The notes beneath the pieces were generated by a model. It saw nothing but the letters and a program-made list of their open reading frames with translations. It did not search any database and was not told where the DNA came from. A DNA stretch of 43,400 bases, taken from positions 1 through 43,400 of the forward strand of contig CANQRI010000113.1 of assembly GCA_947626235.1 (NCBI GenBank), in the 5' to 3' direction. Below, one piece after another: positions 17,386-24,613 of the stretch. The translations under genes and the position numbers were made by a program. Numbering within the stretch: position 1 is the stretch's first letter; every line of letters begins with the position of its first letter. This stretch comes from an uncultured Clostridia bacterium (GTDB lineage Bacteria; Bacillota; Clostridia; TANB77; CAG-508).

Positions 17386-17455
17386 TTTACTGCTCCTTGA
17401 ATCAATTTCGTTGTATACATAATAACACTATTTCTTATTATTGTCAACAAAAAAA

Positions 17456-19077: not shown

Positions 19078-19836
19078 TTAATCGTTATTTTTATTGTATA
19101 TTTTTAAAATTTCGTCTGTATATGTTCCATCTTTATTATATATAAATAAAGGCTTTTCCACTTTTAAAAATTTATTTGCATTTTTTATTGCCTTAATTAA
19201 AACTAATTTAGGTTCTGCTTCTATGTTTGAATATACAAGCCTTATAATTTTGGGTTCTAATTTATTTTCTCTTAATTCACATATTATATCAGCCAATCTT
19301 TCTGGTCTATGTACCATATATAAACAACCTTTATCTTTTAACATATCAAAACTTACATTTAAAAAATCCGATAAATTTGCAGATATTTCATGCCTTGATA
19401 TTAATTTTTTTTCATTTTCATTTATTTTTCCAGAATTTATTTTTTTGTATGGTGGATTCGTTACTATTGCATCAAAAGTATTTTTTTGAAAAATATTTTT
19501 TAAATTTTTTATATTTTCATTTAATATTTCTACTTTTTCTTGTAAATCATTTAATTTTACACTTCTGCTTGCCATATCTGCTACTTCTTCTTGTATCTCT
19601 ACTCCATAAATTTTTTTTAATTTTGTTTTTTTAGATAATAAAATACTTAATATTCCTGTACCTGTTCCTAAATCTAATACTAAAGATTCATTTTTTATTT
19701 CTTTTGAAAAATCTGAAAGTAATACACTATCTATTCCAAAACAAAATCCATTTTTATCTTGTATTATTTTTAATCCTTTATATTCCAAATCATCAATTCT
19801 TTCATTTTCTTTTATTTTTACTTCCATATAACCCAA
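19078..19836 (-). CDS. tRNA (adenine-N6)-methyltransferase-like SAM-dependent methyltransferase (YabB/TrmN6 family)
   Basis: SAM motif LDLGTGTGIL and catalytic NPPY. It neighbours abrB and rsmI, as yabB does in Bacillus. Confidence 0.8.
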   Translation of the reverse strand: MGYMEVKIKENERIDDLEYKGLKIIQDKNGFCFGIDSVLLSDFSKEIKNESLVLDLGTGTGILSILLSKKTKLKKIYGVEIQEEVADMASRSVKLNDLQEKVEILNENIKNLKNIFQKNTFDAIVTNPPYKKINSGKINENEKKLISRHEISANLSDFLNVSFDMLKDKGCLYMVHRPERLADIICELRENKLEPKIIRLVYSNIEAEPKLVLIKAIKNANKFLKVEKPLFIYNKDGTYTDEILKIYNKNND

Positions 19837-19915
19837 CTCCTATTTTTTATTAATTATATTTATTATTTATTTTCATATTTTTATAAATTAATTTTATTTA
19901 TTCTTGCTTGCTTTT

Positions 19916-19944
19916 TTGTCAATTATATTTTGTCTTTTTATAAT
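19916..19944 (+). promoter_or_regulatory. Promoter-like element of array module A1 (TTGTCA-17-TATAAT)
   Basis: Hexamers with an exact 17-nt spacer, conserved in position in all four A modules. Confidence 0.3.
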
Positions 19945-21023
19945 TTTTTCTTTACTTATAGATATTTTTATCATTTTCTTATATTTATGTATACTTTTAT
20001 AATATTTTTTCATTTTTCTTCTTTTTTAGAGATTCCGCATACTTAACAAGAAATTTTTTGTATTTTTTTATCTTTTTTTGCGTATTTTTAAATTTTTATT
20101 AAAATTTTTTATTACTTTCATATTTATATAATATTTGTCTTTTTGAATATATCTGCTTTTTAAATTATTATTTTTAATAATAATTATTTTTATAATTAAT
20201 TATATATTTTTTTATTTTTTAATAATTTTATAACTAAATTTTATTTTTAAATATTTTTAATTTATTTAATTTTTTATTCTTCTTTTTTATATTATTTTTT
20301 ATAATATTTTTTATTAATTGTTTTTTATAATTTTTATTAATCATTTTTTTATAATTTTTTACTAATTTATTTTTTTAATTTCTTATAAATAATTTTTTAT
20401 TAATTAATTATTTATAAATTTTTAATAATTTATTTTTTATAATTCACTATAAATAATTTTTTATTTATAAATTTTTATTACTTTCTTTTTATAATTTTTT
20501 TATTAATATTTTGATTAAATATTTTTGGTTGTTTTTAATTTATTTTTTATTTTAATTTATTATTTTTAATTTAATATAATATATTTTTGATTTATTTTAT
20601 ACGTTTTTATTTTGTTGTTATTTTGACAATACAGTTTTATTTTTCTTTTCTGTTACAATTTTTTTGTCTTTGCATTTTTCATATTTTTAGATTTTTTTGT
20701 TATGTATACTTGTGTTTTATAGAATATCTAATTTCCTTTTTTGCTTATTCCCCAATACTTTTTTCAAAATGTTAATATTTCTTTTGTGTAAGATTTATAT
20801 TCTTTTTTGGTATTTTTCCATTTTCTTTTTATATTTTTTAGTGTTTTTTATTGCTTTTTTGACTATTTATTTTCTATTTCTATTTAATTTTTTTATTTAT
20901 TTTCTTGATTCAAAAAATATTTTTTTATTTTATAAATTTTTTTTATTCATTGATATTAAGCCTTTTTCCATATTTATCTTAATATTTTATATATTTAATT
21001 ATATTTATTTGTTGTTTGTTATA

Positions 21024-21052
21024 TTGACAATTATTTTTTGTCTTTTTATACA
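21024..21052 (+). promoter_or_regulatory. Promoter-like element of array module A2 (TTGACA-17-TATACA)
   Basis: Hexamers with an exact 17-nt spacer, conserved in position in all four A modules. Confidence 0.3.
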
Positions 21053-22130
21053 TTTTATCTTATTTATAGATATTTTTATCATCTTTTGGTGTTTATGTAT
21101 ACTTTTATGGGTTATTTCTGTTTTTCTTCTTCTTTAGAGATTCCCCATACTTTATATTAATTTTTTTGTCTTTTTTTATCTTTTTCCATGCATTATTAAA
21201 AATTTATCAAAAATTTTAATACTCAATTGTATGTATAATATTTGTCTTTTTGTGTATGTTGATTTTTTATTATTATTTTTTATAATATTTTACCTTTATA
21301 TTTAATTAATTATTCTTTAATTATTTAATAATTTTATAATTAATTTTTATTTTTAATTATTTATAATTCATTTTCTATTTATTTTTTTCATATTTTTTTA
21401 TCAATATTTTTATTAATTTTTTTAATTTTTTTTATTTTTTTTATTTATCTTTTTCATATTATTTTTTATTAATTGTTTTTTATTCATATTAATTATTTTT
21501 AATTTTTTATTTTTATAAATTTTTACTAATTGTTGTTTAAAATTTTTTAATTTATCTTTTTTTAATTTTTACTAATTATTTTTTTATAACTTTTTATTAA
21601 TTTATTTTTTATAATTTTTTTATCAATATTTTAATTAATTATTTTTTTCATTTTTTATTTTAATTTATTATTTTTTTATTTAATATAATATATTTTTGAT
21701 TTATTTTATATGTTTTTATTTCGTTGCTATTTTGACAAAATAGCTTTGTTTTTCATTTTTGTTACAATTTTTTTTTGCTTTGTACTTTTTATATTTTAAT
21801 GTTTTTTTGTTATGTATACTTGTGTTTTGGAGAATATTTACTTTTATTTTTTGCTTATTCCCCAATACTTTTTTCAAAATACTAATTTTTTTCTAGTTCA
21901 AAGTTAGATTCTTTTTGGTTATTATTCTATTTTATTTTTATATTTTTAGTTTTTTTTATTGCTTTTTTGACTATTTATTTTTCATTTTTATTTAATTTTT
22001 TTATTTATTTTCTTAATTTAAAAAAATATTTTTTTATTTCATAAATTTTTTTATTCATTGATATTAAGCCTTTTTCCATATTCATCTTAATATTTTGAAT
22101 ATTTAACTATATTTTTTATTGTTTGTTATT

Positions 22131-22159
22131 TTGACAATTGTTTTTTGCCTTTTTATGCT
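22131..22159 (+). promoter_or_regulatory. Promoter-like element of array module A3 (TTGACA-17-TATGCT)
   Basis: Hexamers with an exact 17-nt spacer, conserved in position in all four A modules. Confidence 0.3.
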
Positions 22160-23217
22160 TTTTACCTTATTAATATATATTTTTATCATCATTATGCGTT
22201 TATGTATACTTTTATAAGTTATTTCTATTTTTCTTCTTTTTTAGAGATTCCCCATACTTTATATTAATTTTTTTGTCTTTTTTTATCATTTTTCACGCAA
22301 TATTAAAATTTTATCAAAAATTTTAATATTGAATTGTCTGTATGATATTTGTCTTTTTGTGTATATTGATTTTTTATTATCCTTTTTACAATATTTTTCT
22401 TTTATATTTAATTTAATTATTTTTTATTATTAATAATTTTATAACTGATTTTTATCTATTAATTATTTTTAATTTTTTTTTTATCTATCTTTTATTTATT
22501 TTTTTATATTATTTTTTATTAATTTTTTTTATTCATATTAATTATTTTTAATTTTTTATTTTTATAAATTTTTATTAATTGTTGTTTAAAATTTTTTAAT
22601 TTATTTTTTTAATTTTTACTAATTATTTTTTATTAATTTTTTTATCAACTATTTTTTTATTAATTATTTTTATAACTTTTTATTAATTTATTTTTTATAA
22701 TTTTTTTATCAATATTTTAATTAATTATTTTTTTCATTTTTTATTTTAATTTATTATTTTTTTATTTAATATAATATATTTTTGATTTATTTTATATGTT
22801 TTTATTTCGTTGCTATTTTGACAAAATAGCTTTGTTTTTCATTTTTGTTACAATTTTTTTTGCTTTGTACTTTTTATATTTTAATATCTTTTTGTTATGT
22901 ACACTTGTACTTTGCAAAATATTTACTTTTATTTTTTGCTTATTCCCCAATACTTTTTTCAAAATATTAATATTTCTTTGGTGTAAGGTTCATATTCCTT
23001 TTTGTTATTTTTCCATTTTCTTTTTGTATTTTTTAGTGTTTTTTATTGCTTTTTTGACTATTTATTTTCTATTTTTATTTATTTTTTTTATTTATTTTTT
23101 TAATTCAAAAAATATTTTTTTATTTTATAAAATTTTTTATTCATTGATATTAAGCCTTTTTGCATATTCATCTTAATTTTTTAAATACTTAATTATATTT
23201 ATTTACTGCTTGTTATT

Positions 23218-23246
23218 TTGACAATTATTTTTTGTTCTTCTATGCA
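23218..23246 (+). promoter_or_regulatory. Promoter-like element of array module A4 (TTGACA-17-TATGCA)
   Basis: Hexamers with an exact 17-nt spacer, conserved in position in all four A modules. Confidence 0.3.
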
Positions 23247-23779
23247 TTTTATCTTATTTTTATATATTTTTATTATCTTTTTGTGTTTATGTATACTTTT
23301 ATGGGTTATTTCCGTTTTTCTTCTTTTTTAGAGATTCCCCATACTTTATATTAATTTTTTTGTCTTTTTTTATCATTTTTCACATAATATTAAAATTTTA
23401 TCAAAAATTTTAATATTGAATTGTCCTCATAATATTTGTCTTTTTGTGTATGTCGGTTTTTTATTATTATTTTTTACAATATTTTACCTTTATATTTAAT
23501 TAATTATTTTTTTATTATTTAATAATTTTATAATTAATTTTTATTTTTAATTATTTATAATTCATTTTCTATTTATTTTTTTCATATTTTTTATCAATAT
23601 TTTTATTAATTATTTTTAATTTTTTTATTTATCTTTTTCATATTATTTTTTATTAATATTTTTTTATTATTTATTTTTAATTTTTTATTAATTATTTTTA
23701 TATTAATTTTTTTATTATTTATTAATTAATTATTTTATTAATATTTTTTATTAATTAATTAAATATTATTTATTACCAT

Positions 23780-24613
23780 TTATTTATTTTTTATAAAATA
23801 TTTATATATTTCATTTTTATTTACATTTTTATCTTTTGCAATTTTTTTAATTATTTCATTTTTTATTAAACCTTGTTTTTCATAATATTTATAATGTTCT
23901 TCCAATGACATATTATTTAAAATATTTTTTTCATTATTTTCTTGTGATTTATTTCCTTCTATTAAAATAATATGTTCTCCTTTTGGTTCATTATATTTTT
24001 CTAAAATTTCTGAAGCTGTACCACTTATAAATTCTTCATGTATTTTTGTTAATTCTCTGGCTATTACTATTTTTCTATTTTCAAATATTTCTTCAATCAA
24101 TTTTAATGTATCTAATAATTTATGTGGTGCTTCATATATTATTGATGTTTTTTTCTCTTTTTTTATTTCTTCTAATTTCTCTTTTTTTAATTTTTTATTT
24201 GTAGATAAAAATCCATAAAATGCAAATTCTTTTGCATCTAACCCTGAAGCTATTAATGCATTTATTAATGCACATGCACCTGGTATTGGAATTATTTTTA
24301 TATTTTCCTTTAATGCTTCTTTTACTACTTCTTCCCCTGGATCAGAAATTACAGGAGTACCTGCATCTGAAACTAATGCAATATTTTCTCCTTTTTTTAA
24401 TTTTTCTATTATTATATCTGATTTTACTTCTTCATTATGCCTATGATAACTAATTAATGGTTTTGATATATTTAAATGATTTAATAATTTTAATGTATGT
24501 CTTGTATCTTCTGCAGCAATTAAATCTACTTCTTTTAAAATATTTATTGCTCTTAATGTTATATCTTCTAAATTTCCTATTGGTGTTGCAACCAAATATA
24601 ATATTCCATTCAT
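23780..24613 (-). CDS. rsmI: 16S rRNA (cytidine1402-2'-O)-methyltransferase
   Basis: The N-terminus LYLVATPIGNLEDITLRA and the tetrapyrrole-methylase fold are typical of RsmI. 277 aa. Confidence 0.9.
   Translation of the reverse strand: MNGILYLVATPIGNLEDITLRAINILKEVDLIAAEDTRHTLKLLNHLNISKPLISYHRHNEEVKSDIIIEKLKKGENIALVSDAGTPVISDPGEEVVKEALKENIKIIPIPGACALINALIASGLDAKEFAFYGFLSTNKKLKKEKLEEIKKEKKTSIIYEAPHKLLDTLKLIEEIFENRKIVIARELTKIHEEFISGTASEILEKYNEPKGEHIILIEGNKSQENNEKNILNNMSLEEHYKYYEKQGLIKNEIIKKIAKDKNVNKNEIYKYFIKNK

What the first reader, a model, noticed from the sequence alone, without database searches (positions are those of the whole stretch)
19860..23779. 3.9-kb ORF-poor tandem array of a roughly 1.1-kb unit inserted between the yabB-like methyltransferase gene and rsmI
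Repeat period. Landmarks recur with periods of 1085-1117 bp: TTG(A/T)CA at 19916/21024/22131/23218 (A modules) and TTGACA at 20623/21732/22818 (B modules). A and B are diverged copies of one module, TTGTT..ATTTTGACAAT .. TTATGTATAC .. 43 nt .. ATTCC(C/G)C(A)ATAC. Array layout. The array therefore holds 7 modules, alternating with four 300-450-bp blocks of T-tracts. Copies differ by many substitutions and indels, so this is not a fresh duplication. Coding potential. I saw no SD motifs and no frame that is conserved across copies. The plus strand is overwhelmingly T. A non-coding tract this large is exceptional in a compact genome, about 16 kb from oriC and between genes that are neighbours in other Firmicutes. 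Possible roles. It might be a set of tandem promoter/sRNA units, a protein-binding or nucleoid-organising platform, or a satellite derived from the T4SS-like island.
Basis: seen in the sequence. Interest (0 to 1): 0.82.

Follow-up and report, generated by a model that had tools for sequence, protein, structure and literature searches.

The report
Non-coding AT-rich tandem repeat array
A 3.9-kb gene-free stretch near the replication origin of an uncultured gut Clostridium is a real tandem array of a 1.1-kb unit carrying a short conserved three-box DNA motif; its closest relative found has a single unit, and its function is unknown.

Summary
Window 19864-23779 is about 3.6 tandem copies of a 1.1-kb unit, 82-84% identical, 11-12% G+C and 63% T on the + strand. 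There is no SD-led ORF, terminator, Rfam hit or conserved RNA fold. Each unit holds two paralogous modules (A, B) and an AT-only minisatellite block. Every module has three boxes: TTTTG(A/T)CAAT, TTTATGTATAC and TCC(G/C). The last two lie at a fixed 47-nt offset. An eighth copy sits at 3377-3476.

Independent assemblies reproduce the yabB junction and the first 1.5 kb at 99.6%. Homologous modules occur in five related lineages at three genomic sites. The closest lineage has one unit in the same spacer, only 70% identical although the flanking genes are 93-98% identical. Other relatives carry unrelated AT-rich arrays nearby. At both operon-internal sites the flanking genes have swapped order relative to outgroups.

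Best reading: recombinational amplification of a fast-evolving, lineage-specific non-coding element whose boxes are DNA-level protein-binding sites. Copy number itself is probably not essential. The tandem promoter/sRNA and mini-peptide readings are poorly supported. No known repeat, IS, phage or plasmid sequence matches. This is a new repeat family of unknown function, of moderate interest.

The parts
19864..23779 (.). Tandem array of about 3.6 copies of a ~1107-bp non-coding unit. Layout from the yabB side: A1-AT-B1-linker-A2-AT-B2-linker-A3-AT-B3-linker-A4-AT.
   Evidence: Self-blastn at 82-84% identity with offsets 1107 and 2215. Repeat families D1-D6. Unit alignment.
19902..20072 (+). Module A1. 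Box1 TTTTGTCAAT (TTGTCA at 19916), Box2 TTATGTATAC at 19985, Box3 ATTCC at 20032.
   Evidence: nhmmer E=2e-19. Alignments. Spacing.
20610..20786 (+). Module B1. TTGACA at 20623, Box2 at 20700, ATTCC at 20747.
21011..21180 (+). Module A2. TTGACA at 21024, Box2 at 21093, ATTCC at 21140.
21717..21897 (+). Module B2. TTGACA at 21732, Box2 at 21810, ATTCC at 21857.
22116..22287 (+). Module A3. TTGACA at 22131, Box2 at 22200, ATTCC at 22247.
22803..22983 (+). Module B3. TTGACA at 22818, Box2 variant TTATGTACAC at 22895, ATTCC at 22942.
23204..23374 (+). Module A4. TTGACA at 23218, Box2 at 23287, ATTCC at 23334.
20160..20600 (.). AT-only block 1. Minisatellite-like subrepeats of 12-13 and 25 nt.
   Evidence: TRF rows. 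Weak 12.5-12.75-nt periodicity just above shuffles.
21260..21710 (.). AT-only block 2.
22370..22800 (.). AT-only block 3.
23460..23779 (.). AT-only block 4, abutting the rsmI stop codon.
   Evidence: The equivalent block in the closest lineage varies between samples in copies of a 15-nt unit.
22298..22331 (.). Perfect 15-bp A/T inverted repeat with a 4-nt centre, downstream of module A3. An equivalent repeat lies at 23386-23417 after A4. It is degenerate after A1 and A2.
   Evidence: the repeat finder I17 and I19
3124..3600 (+). Eighth copy of the element: an AT-only block (3124-3300) plus a diverged module (TTGACT at 3377, Box2 at 3425, ATTCC at 3472). It lies between two genes of the T4SS-like cluster.
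   Evidence: The closest lineage has a degenerate 308-bp version.
19078..19836 (-). yabB-like tRNA(m6A37) methyltransferase gene, flanking the array. It lies downstream of rsmI here and upstream of it in most relatives.
   Evidence: Pfam MTS. Name from homologues. Order.
23780..24613 (-). rsmI gene, flanking the array. No terminator lies between its stop codon and the array.
   Evidence: Pfam TP_methylase. No terminator found.

Best explanation
**Shown.** The region is a non-coding tandem amplification of a lineage-specific intergenic element.
- The element consists of an AT-only, slippage-prone minisatellite block plus a ~170-bp module.
- The module has three conserved boxes: G(T/C)T(A/T)TTTTG(A/T)CAAT, TTTATGTATAC and (A/T)TCC(G/C).
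- The element is dispersed at three or more intergenic sites in a subclade of uncultured, low-G+C gut Clostridia.
- In the rsmI-yabB spacer it is present as one unit (B+A modules) in the closest lineage, as two or more modules ~1.0-1.3 kb apart (both contigs end inside the repeat) in two more distant ones, and as 3.6 units here.

**Inferred: how the array arose.**
- Copy number changes by unequal homologous recombination between units.
- Units are homogenised within a genome (concerted evolution) while the sequence outside the boxes turns over faster than synonymous sites.
- The same repeat-mediated duplication and loss explains why the flanking gene pairs are swapped at both operon-internal sites.

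**Inferred: how the element works.** The three boxes act at the DNA level as binding sites for an unidentified sequence-specific protein, probably a dimer or oligomer. The reasons are:
- Two boxes have palindromic cores (TTGWCAA, GTATAC).
- The Box2-Box3 distance is fixed.
- The Box1-Box2 distance changes in steps of about 10 bp.
- Orientation relative to neighbouring genes is not kept.

The array then simply multiplies such sites sevenfold. It is probably tolerated rather than required.
For: **Array and modules**
- establish the array and its seven modules.
- There are 8 matches to the two-box pattern, against 0 in shuffles.

**Non-coding**
- Searches show no conserved frame and no SD plus start codon.
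- The peptide profile finds no relative among 5.8 billion proteins.
- Differences between module copies are spread evenly over codon positions: 10/11/9, 5/6/2, 9/8/12.

**Not a structured RNA**
- No Rfam match even at E<=10.
- RNAalifold finds 0 consensus pairs on either strand.
- No terminators.

**Homologous modules elsewhere**
- L003 x2, L030 x2, L008, L243 x2 and L235-L242 x2 each (nhmmer).
- The offset ATG(Box2)->TCCS is 47 in 15 of 17 copies.
- The Box1->Box2 distance is 52, 62, 72, 74 or 80-81 (plus sequence count).

**Selection on the boxes**
- The closest lineage has flanking genes 97.6% and 93.2% identical in DNA (third positions 95.7% and 85.2%).
- Its spacer unit is about 70% identical with 99 gap columns.
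- Boxes 1-3 nevertheless persist there and in lineages with 73-84% RsmI or 82% YabB identity.

**Copy-number change**
- One unit (1009-1199 bp) lies between rsmI and yabB in 8 samples. Contigs of 35-42x coverage span both genes.

**Reality**
- L230 matches the window at 99.6% through 1.5 kb of the array.

**Gene swaps at both sites**
-.
Against: - No binding protein is identified, and no box matches a binding site that I could verify.
- Box1 in reverse reads TGTCAAA. This is a Spo0A 0A box with G5 replaced by A, a change reported to cut affinity about tenfold (PMC3485338).
- The ~10-bp stepping of the Box1-Box2 distance rests on five lineage classes, and 74 and 80-81 fit less well than 52/62/72.
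- The variable positions inside Boxes 2 and 3 are mostly third positions of the frame that starts at the Box2 ATG (TAT/TAC, ACT/ACC/ACG, ATT/ATC, CCC/CCG). A coding constraint would explain this better than a DNA site would.
- The one-unit state in the closest lineage could in principle be a collapsed assembly, although 17% divergence between units makes that unlikely.
- Nothing shows that the array, as opposed to a single module, matters to the cell.
Confidence: 0.45

Rival explanations
1. Neutral satellite. An AT-rich spacer expanded by slippage and unequal crossing-over in a genome rich in low-complexity intergenic DNA. Neither the boxes nor the array has any function.
For: - Repeat structure is nested: 12-25-nt subrepeats, A/B module duplication, then the 1.1-kb array.
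- The minisatellite copy number varies between samples.
- Copy number is 1 in the closest lineage.
- Unrelated AT-rich arrays of 470-1330-bp units lie at other intergenic sites of the same region in L043, L059, L069, L022, L020 and L026.
- AT-only blocks precede genes in outgroups too.
Against: - Runs of 10-13 invariant positions that include the rare G and C survive. The rest of the unit has diverged to 70% between lineages whose flanking genes are 93-98% identical.
- They also survive across lineages with 73-84% RsmI identity.
- A 47-nt offset without indels in 15 of 17 copies is unexpected in T-runs, which elsewhere accumulate indels.
Confidence: 0.17
2. Tandem mini-genes. Each module encodes a short hydrophobic peptide (MYT-x13-P..., 19-46 aa) starting at the ATG of Box2. 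It would be translated without an SD from a very short leader, and could be a type-I-toxin-like or small membrane peptide.
For: - The frame from the Box2 ATG is open for at least 17 codons in 14 of 17 copies.
- The proline codon sits at codon 17 in 16 of 17.
- Variation inside the boxes falls mostly at third codon positions.
- Two L243 copies give 46-aa ORFs of equal length ending at the same stop despite 30 substitutions.
Against: - No SD lies upstream in any copy.
- There is no conserved -10 at leaderless distance.
- Lengths range from 6 to more than 90 aa.
- A stop occurs at codon 2 in L235B and in the L244 copy, and at codon 7 in B1.
- 1-nt offsets right after the proline codon shift the frame between lineages.
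- Substitutions are evenly spread over codon positions, and pN/pS does not differ from the other frames.
- There is no homologue among predicted proteins.
- T-rich DNA is poor in stop codons by composition.
Confidence: 0.12
3. Non-autonomous recombination or mobile element. The module is the site of a trans-acting recombinase. Integration and excision at it spread the element, build tandem copies and reshuffle adjacent genes, cassette-like.
For: - Copies lie at three unrelated sites (rsmI|yabB, downstream of BcrAD, inside the T4SS-like cluster). They are absent from the orthologous sites of outgroups.
- At both operon-internal sites the neighbouring genes are swapped relative to outgroups.
- Box spacing is fixed, as in recombination sites.
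Against: - No recombinase or transposase gene lies nearby.
- No terminal inverted repeats were seen. One search reports no inverted repeat of 40 nt or more, and the shorter ones are all A/T-only and internal to the unit. No direct-repeat scan was run on an insertion junction, so target-site duplications were not tested.
- Whole units, not only the sites, are homologous. This is what ordinary unequal recombination gives.
- Three sites is a small sample.
- There is no match in viral, plasmid or phage collections.
Confidence: 0.12
4. Tandem promoter or small-RNA transcription units on the T-rich strand.
For: - TTGACA/TTGTCA is present in every module. A good -10 lies 17 nt downstream in A1 (TATAAT) and A3 (TATGCT).
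- B modules keep TGTTACAAT.
- A canonical promoter at 17419-17447 (-) uses the same words: TTGACAAT-N15-TATTATGTATAC.
- A different array family in L043 does carry a conserved sigma-A-type promoter and a terminator-like hairpin in each unit.
Against: - -10 elements are lost in A2 and A4 (TATACA, TATGCA) and absent at the right spacing in L003, L030, L243 and the 3377 copy.
- The region has fewer promoter-like sites than shuffles, and no terminators.
- There is no Rfam hit and no consensus structure.
- Such transcripts would run head-on against replication and antisense to rsmI.
Confidence: 0.1
5. Assembly artefact: a single unit spuriously expanded.
For: Tandem repeats are error-prone in assembly, and many relatives' contigs end at such arrays.
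Against: - Units differ by 16-18% with many indels, so they are individually distinguishable.
- An independent short-read contig reproduces unit 1 and the start of unit 2 at 99.6% identity.
Confidence: 0.02

Closest known systems
Dispersed bacterial intergenic repeats (REP/BIME of E. coli, BOX and RUP of pneumococcus, Correia elements, other MITEs). From my own knowledge.
   Same: They are non-coding, lineage-specific and scattered in intergenic DNA, often just downstream of genes. Some form clusters and serve as protein-binding sites. They can promote rearrangements.
   Different: Those are 35-300 bp and built on hairpins or terminal inverted repeats. Here the module has no inverted-repeat architecture. 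It carries a long AT-only minisatellite and forms kilobase-unit tandem arrays.
Satellite or macrosatellite DNA and VNTRs evolving by unequal crossing-over with concerted evolution (general concept).
   Same: Nested repeat hierarchy, copy-number change between close lineages (1 vs 3.6 units) and length-variable minisatellite. Units are more alike within a genome (82-84%) than between lineages (70%).
   Different: Kilobase-unit non-coding satellites are unusual in a compact ~1.5-Mb bacterial genome. Here short boxes inside the unit are conserved far beyond the rest.
Iteron or centromere-like arrays of plasmids and phages (sopC, parC, parS clusters, replication iterons).
   Same: Tandem repetition of putative protein-binding sites, AT-rich surroundings, and phased spacing.
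   Different: Units there are 10-43 bp next to rep or par genes. Here units are 1.1 kb with no rep or par gene adjacent, on the chromosome 15.6 kb from oriC. DnaA boxes are absent.
Tandem small-RNA or type I toxin-antitoxin repeats (LhrC1-5, ldr, ibs/sib, hok/sok-type loci).
   Same: Repeated units with promoter-like words and a short hydrophobic ORF.
   Different: Those loci have an SD, an antisense RNA, a terminator and conserved RNA structure. None of these is present here, and the peptide is not conserved.
Integron cassette arrays.
   Same: Arrays of about 1-kb units each carrying a conserved site, associated with reordering of neighbouring genes.
   Different: There is no integrase and no attC-type imperfect palindrome. 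Whole units are homologous to each other rather than only the sites.

Membership tests
Any Rfam RNA family (sRNA, riboswitch, leader) | Match to a curated covariance model | tested here: not met
   The array gave 0 matches at E<=10 on both strands. At gathering scores the window shows only tRNAs and SRP RNA, all outside the array.
Structured non-coding RNA gene (unclassified) | Conserved secondary structure with covariation, plus a promoter and a terminator | tested here: not met
   RNAalifold gives 0 pairs on the T-rich strand (9 sequences) and on the A-rich strand (11 sequences). There are no terminator-like sites, and promoter-like sites fall below the shuffle expectation.
Type I toxin-antitoxin or small-peptide tandem genes | Short ORF with a ribosome-binding site, conserved at the protein level | tested here: not met
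   No SD plus start codon anywhere. Substitutions are even over codon positions. Premature stops occur in 3 copies. There are no protein homologues.
Type I toxin-antitoxin or small-peptide tandem genes | Overlapping antisense RNA with its own promoter and terminator | tested here: not met
   No terminator and no conserved structure on the opposite strand.
IS element or MITE | Terminal inverted repeats and target-site duplication; a transposase for an autonomous copy | tested here: inconclusive
   There is no long inverted repeat, only A/T palindromes internal to the unit. No transposase lies nearby. Exact element ends could not be defined, because no empty site with the same gene order was available.
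Known IS, phage or plasmid non-coding repeat | Sequence similarity to a deposited element | tested here: not met
   blastn 'distant' found no match in 72,556 plasmids and 50,697 phage records. Pattern hits in viral and metagenome contigs were all chance, since nhmmer does not confirm them.
CRISPR array | Short (24-48 bp) near-identical direct repeats separated by unique spacers of similar length | tested here: not met
   Whole 1.1-kb units are homologous. No such repeat-spacer pattern appears in the TRF or repeat finder output.
DnaA-box cluster or secondary origin | Clustered TTATNCACA boxes | tested here: not met
   Boxes with 1 mismatch or fewer cluster only at 39317-39348 and 40822-40979. 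None lies in the array.
Spo0A-binding array (0A boxes) | Core TGTCGAA with G2, C4 and G5 contacted | tested here: not met
   Box1 in reverse reads TGTCAAA (or TGACAAA), so G5 is A. According to PMC3485338 the G5A change cuts binding about tenfold. Binding itself cannot be tested here.
Plasmid-type iteron or centromere array | Short iterated sites adjacent to cognate rep or par genes | tested here: not met
   The flanking genes are yabB, rsmI, abrB, spmAB and a Germane-domain gene. No rep or par gene is present.
Tandem-repeat (satellite-type) DNA with concerted evolution | Head-to-tail homologous units, with copy number varying between lineages and units more alike within than between genomes | tested here: met
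   (units 82-84% identical). (one unit in the closest lineage, 70% identical to every window unit)..

The most novel reading that the evidence does not exclude
The three-box module is the recognition site of an unidentified DNA-binding or recombination system specific to this clade of uncultured gut Clostridia. It makes its surroundings recombinogenic. This builds kilobase tandem arrays, makes the locus evolve faster than synonymous sites, and reorders adjacent housekeeping genes (yabB/rsmI, and the 92-aa/289-aa pair of the T4SS-like cluster). That would be a new kind of non-autonomous genome-shuffling element.
Probability: 0.12. Interest if true: 0.8.

Novelty: new variant of a known kind. 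Interest (0 to 1): 0.5.

Why it matters
If the reading is right, a compact (~1.5 Mb class), uncultured gut Clostridia lineage maintains kilobase-scale non-coding satellites built around a short, strongly conserved DNA motif.

- **A concrete handle.** The motif is a 3-box site with fixed geometry. It could be used to fish for an unknown DNA-binding protein in organisms that cannot yet be grown.
- **Assembly breaks.** Contigs of several relatives (for example L003, L008 and L016) end inside such arrays, which suggests that these repeats break MAG assemblies around this locus.
- **Strain typing.** The locus is hypervariable. Unit number, minisatellite length and unit sequence all change (70% identity against 93-98% for the flanking genes). 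It could serve for strain typing.
- **Local gene-order change.** At both operon-internal sites the neighbouring genes are swapped, which suggests that such repeats drive local gene-order change.

If the array is only tolerated junk, it is still an instructive exception to the rule that reduced bacterial genomes purge non-coding DNA.

Tried and rejected
1. **Known RNA families.** Rfam at gathering and at E<=10 gave nothing in the array.
2. **Conserved RNA structure.** None on either strand.
3. **Sigma-70 promoter and terminator scans.** Uninformative or negative in this composition.
4. **Public DNA searches for the module.**
   - The viral contigs pattern gave 29 hits, all chance.
   - Plasmid and phage blastn gave no match.
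   - The strict metagenome contigs pattern gave 0 hits. The relaxed one gave 120 hits, none confirmed by nhmmer.
5. **Coding on the T-rich strand.** The long ORFs at 20697-21137 and 22796-23176 are not kept in frame between units.
6. **Coding of the MYT... mini-ORF.** There is no codon-position signal and no homologue (one search failed because the query was too short).
7. **yabB pseudogene remnants** in the array or in the Germane-rsmI gap: none.
8. **DnaA boxes:** none in the array.
9. **Helical phasing of A/T tracts** in the AT-only blocks. Only a weak 12-12.75-nt signal appears, not 10.5, and the periods differ in other arrays.
10. **Shared k-mers among arrays of all relatives.** There is no universal motif. 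Arrays fall into unrelated families.
11. **Apparent extension of the repeat into the rsmI 3' end (to 23901).** This is low-complexity similarity only.
12. **Sigma-E/K/H/B, XerD/dif, CtsR, WalR and IHF look-alikes of the boxes.** These were compared from memory only. None fitted in all copies, so I make no claim.
13. **Alternative genetic code** (suggested by a database product reading TGA as W): rejected. TGA ends 3 of 35 ORFs and TGG encodes Trp 47 times.
14. **The divergent 117-nt tail of contig L231.** It is unrelated sequence, probably a chimeric 2x-coverage contig.

Full report
**1. What is there**

The window is about 25% G+C. It carries dnaA (39370-40719) and dnaN, with DnaA boxes only at 39317-39348 and 40822-40979.

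Between a yabB-like tRNA methyltransferase gene (19078-19836, -) and rsmI (23780-24613, -) lie 3.9 kb of 10.6-12.4% G+C. The + strand there is 63% T and 25% A.

- Self-comparison aligns 19864-22803 with 20971-23901 at 83.3% (offset 1107) and gives 82.1% at offset 2215.
- Repeat families have spacings of 1108/1107/1087 and 1109/1086.

So there are about 3.6 head-to-tail units of ~1107 bp, 16-18% diverged, with many indels that concentrate in the AT-only parts.

**2. Anatomy of a unit**

Each unit holds an A module, an AT-only block of 320-450 bp, a B module and a T-rich linker.

- The AT-only block carries subrepeats of 12-13 and 25 nt. Its 12-12.75-nt periodicity is weak and is not helical phasing.
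- A and B are paralogues.
- All seven modules, and an eighth copy at 3377-3476 inside a T4SS-like gene cluster, share three boxes on the T-rich strand:
  - Box1: G(T/C)T(A/T)TTTTG(A/T)CAAT
  - Box2: TTTATGTATAC
  - Box3: (A/T)TCC(G/C)
- The pattern TTATGTAYAC-N37-ATTCC occurs 8 times in the window and never in 100 shuffles.

**3. It is non-coding, and it does not look like an RNA gene**

- ORFs on the T-rich strand are compositional and lose frame between units.
- No SD-like motif is followed by a start codon on either strand.
- Rfam gives nothing even at E<=10.
- RNAalifold finds no consensus pair for the module on either strand.
- There are no terminator-like sites, and fewer promoter-like sites than in shuffles.
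- The TTGACA word has a proper -10 at 17 nt only in A1 and A3. A2 and A4 have lost the invariant final T, and relatives have no -10 at that spacing.

**4. It is real**

The AbrB protein next to yabB is found, by exact sequence, on four contigs from other metagenome samples.

- They match the window at 97.7-100%.
- Three of them (L230-L232) run from yabB into the array.
- One (L230) runs through unit 1 into unit 2 at 99.6%.

**5. Relatives**

RsmI relatives are MAGs of uncultured low-G+C Clostridia from animal and human guts. I think they belong to the GTDB order TANB77, but I could not test this.

The synteny BcrAD(-), Germane, yabB, rsmI, abrB(-), spmA, spmB, [rlmH], MBL is conserved. Three findings follow.

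(a) *Gene order is swapped.* In most relatives yabB lies directly upstream of rsmI. The window has rsmI-array-yabB.

(b) *Homologous modules occur in five other lineages* (nhmmer).

| Lineage | Similarity to window | Modules | Location |
|---|---|---|---|
| L003 | RsmI 84% | two, 1336 bp apart | downstream of rsmI; contig ends in the array |
| L243 | YabB 82% | two, 1037 bp apart | upstream of yabB; contig starts in the array |
| L030 | RsmI 73% | two, ~550 bp apart | downstream of BcrAD |
| L008 | RsmI 76% | one | downstream of BcrAD, at a contig end |
| L235-L242 | YabB 94% | two (one B-like, one A-like) | rsmI-yabB spacer |

(c) *The closest lineage has one unit.* In L235-L242, contigs of 35-42x coverage span Germane, rsmI, a 1009-1199-bp spacer, yabB and abrB. 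The spacer is one unit: a B-like and an A-like module plus AT blocks. The only difference among eight samples is the number of copies of a 15-nt TTATTATTTATTTTT repeat.

That unit is about 70% identical to every unit of the window. The flanking genes, by contrast, are 97.6% (rsmI) and 93.2% (yabB) identical in DNA, with third positions at 95.7% and 85.2%.

The spacer therefore changes much faster than synonymous sites, or retains a different paralogue. Units within the window are more alike (82-84%) than units between lineages. This is the signature of concerted evolution in a tandem array.

**6. The boxes are under constraint**

Across 17 copies from six lineages, the distance from the ATG of Box2 to TCC(G/C) is 47 nt in 15 copies. 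In a sixth-lineage copy the proline-codon position is kept, and L008 is one nucleotide shorter. The 37 nt in between are barely alignable.

The Box1-to-Box2 distance takes these values (and a direct count):

- 52 in the copy at 3377
- 62 in L030
- 72 in A and L235A
- 74 in L003 and L243
- 80-81 in B and L235B

That is roughly one helical turn per step.

Box1 has a 7-bp palindromic core, TTGWCAA. Its central base flips A/T in A1 and L030 without breaking the symmetry. Box2 holds the palindrome GTATAC.

Module orientation relative to the nearest genes is not kept. It is antisense to rsmI and yabB, but sense to BcrAD and to the T4SS-like genes. Taken together, these features fit DNA-level recognition by a protein better than an RNA or a peptide. 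This is inference: no protein is identified.

**7. The mini-ORF question**

The ATG in Box2 opens a frame, MYT-x13-P..., that stays open for at least 17 codons in most copies.

*In favour:*
- Variable positions inside the boxes are mostly third positions (TAT/TAC, ACT/ACC/ACG, ATT/ATC, CCC/CCG).
- Two L243 copies give 46-aa ORFs of equal length.

*Against:*
- There is no SD.
- Lengths range from 6 to more than 90 aa.
- There is a stop at codon 2 in L235B and in the L244 copy, and at codon 7 in B1.
- 1-nt shifts occur right after the proline codon.
- Substitutions are spread evenly over codon positions, and pN/pS is no different from the other frames.
- No relative was found among predicted proteins.

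I keep this as a minority rival.

**8. A wider phenomenon**

Other relatives carry AT-rich tandem arrays that are not homologous to this one (nhmmer, k-mers). They lie at nearby intergenic sites.

| Locus | Unit | Position |
|---|---|---|
| L043 (a complete 1.55-Mb chromosome) | 733 bp, about 7 copies | between Germane and rsmI |
| L069 | 947 bp | between Germane and rsmI |
| L059, L060 | 839 bp | between Germane and rsmI |
| L022 | 472 bp | downstream of BcrAD |
| L020, L026 | ~1.0-1.3 kb | between spmB and MBL |

In 12 of 14 such regions the A-rich strand is the rsmI-sense strand, which is the leading strand.

The L043 family differs in kind. Each unit has a conserved promoter on the A-rich strand: TTGGTA/TTTGTA-17-TACAAT/TATAAT/TATACT. 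It also has an invariant CTTACAGTATTTTCC and a hairpin plus T-run before the next unit.

Long AT-rich arrays are thus a habit of this clade, with different cores.

**9. Gene swaps**

The copy at 3124-3600 separates a 93-aa gene from a 291-aa gene.

- Two outgroups (L247, L249) have the order TrwB-like, TrbC-like, 289-294 aa, 92-96 aa.
- The window and its closest lineage (L244) have 107 aa, 93 aa, spacer with module, 291-296 aa.
- In L244 the spacer is 308 bp. Its module is degenerate (Box2 TTATGTAAAT), yet TCC is still at +47.

So at both places where the module lies inside a co-oriented gene pair, the pair is swapped relative to outgroups. Duplication between direct repeats followed by loss of the outer copies would produce exactly this. 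A site-specific mechanism is not excluded.

**10. Comparison with known things**

- No match was found to plasmid, phage, viral or metagenome DNA.
- It is not CRISPR, not an iteron or par array (no rep or par genes), and not a DnaA-box cluster.
- Box1 reversed is a 0A box with the contacted G5 changed to A, which weakens Spo0A binding about tenfold according to PMC3485338.
- The nearest concepts are dispersed intergenic repeats (REP/BIME, BOX, MITEs) and satellite-type tandem DNA. It differs from the first in lacking hairpins or inverted repeats and in its kilobase tandem units. It differs from the second in the conserved three-box core.

**11. Verdict**

- The array is a recombinational amplification of a fast-evolving, lineage-specific non-coding element.
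- The conserved part is a three-box motif, most likely a DNA-binding site. My confidence in the whole statement is 0.45.
- The copy number is not conserved and is probably not essential.
- This is a new repeat family, a new variant of known kinds of bacterial repeats, of unknown function. Interest is moderate (0.5).
- It would rise sharply if the boxes prove to be the site of a recombination or chromosome-organising system.

Noticed in passing
window 19078-24613: The gene order is rsmI-array-yabB, whereas most of the 80 relatives fetched have yabB immediately upstream of rsmI. The rsmI-spacer-yabB order is confirmed in the closest lineage (L235, L237). L003 and L243 each show one side of it on contigs that end in the repeat.
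   Followed up: yes
window 2842-4492; L244 5411-6891; L247 5475-7196; L249 3641-5232: In the T4SS-like cluster the 93-aa gene lies upstream of the 291-aa gene, with the module-bearing spacer between them. Two outgroups have the 289-294-aa gene first and the 92-96-aa gene after it. This is a second adjacent-gene swap at a module site.
   Followed up: partly
window 3596-3630: The conserved 291-aa membrane-protein gene has no ATG, GTG or TTG start in frame. The window reads AGGAGGTGATATAAAATAG, while the closest lineage has GTGATAAAAATAG (MIKIEN...), so there is one extra T after codon 2. An independent assembly shows the same (P0122). The database gene caller bridged the in-frame TGA as Trp (P0121), but the window otherwise uses the standard code. 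This may be a non-canonical start, a frameshift or a pseudogene.
   Followed up: partly
L043 4456-9714; L069 5613-9125; L059/L060 6854-9449: A different, non-homologous array family lies between the Germane-domain gene and rsmI, and yabB is absent within 10 kb. Each 730-950-bp unit has a conserved sigma-A-type promoter on the A-rich strand, an invariant CTTACAGTATTTTCC just downstream, and a possible 15-21-codon ORF (MTCN.E...). A hairpin plus T-run precedes the next unit.
   Followed up: partly
L235-L242, AT block next to rsmI (e.g. L235 2203-2450): Among eight samples with otherwise identical spacers, only the number of copies of a 15-nt unit (TTATTATTTATTTTT) differs, so spacer length ranges from 1009 to 1199 bp. 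This is either a true VNTR or short-read assembly ambiguity.
   Followed up: no
window 17411-17447 (-): A canonical promoter, TTGACAAT-N15-TATTATGTATAC, uses the same words as Box1 and Box2 but at normal 17-nt hexamer spacing. It lies upstream of an SD-led 42-codon ORF (MLIQILLFYS...). The promoter is conserved in at least seven relatives downstream of spmB.
   Followed up: partly
window 19078-19836 vs 23780-24613, compared with L235: The two genes flanking the array differ in divergence from the closest lineage. rsmI is 97.6% identical and yabB 93.2% identical in DNA. This suggests recombination or different histories on the two sides of the array.
   Followed up: no
L003 8800-9400: The L003 lineage (RsmI 84% identical to the window, the highest among the fetched MAG loci) has an extra ~170-codon gene between the Germane-domain gene and rsmI. 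It is absent from the window, where that gap is 275 bp.
   Followed up: no
L231 1387-1503: A 2x-coverage contig of the same species leaves the array after 19953 and continues in unrelated, higher-G+C sequence. It is probably chimeric, although a structural variant cannot be excluded.
   Followed up: partly
L247 5808-5990 and 7197-7330: AT-only, T-rich blocks with short periodic subrepeats also precede ordinary genes in outgroups that lack the three-box module. Such blocks are therefore a general feature of intergenic DNA in this clade.
   Followed up: no
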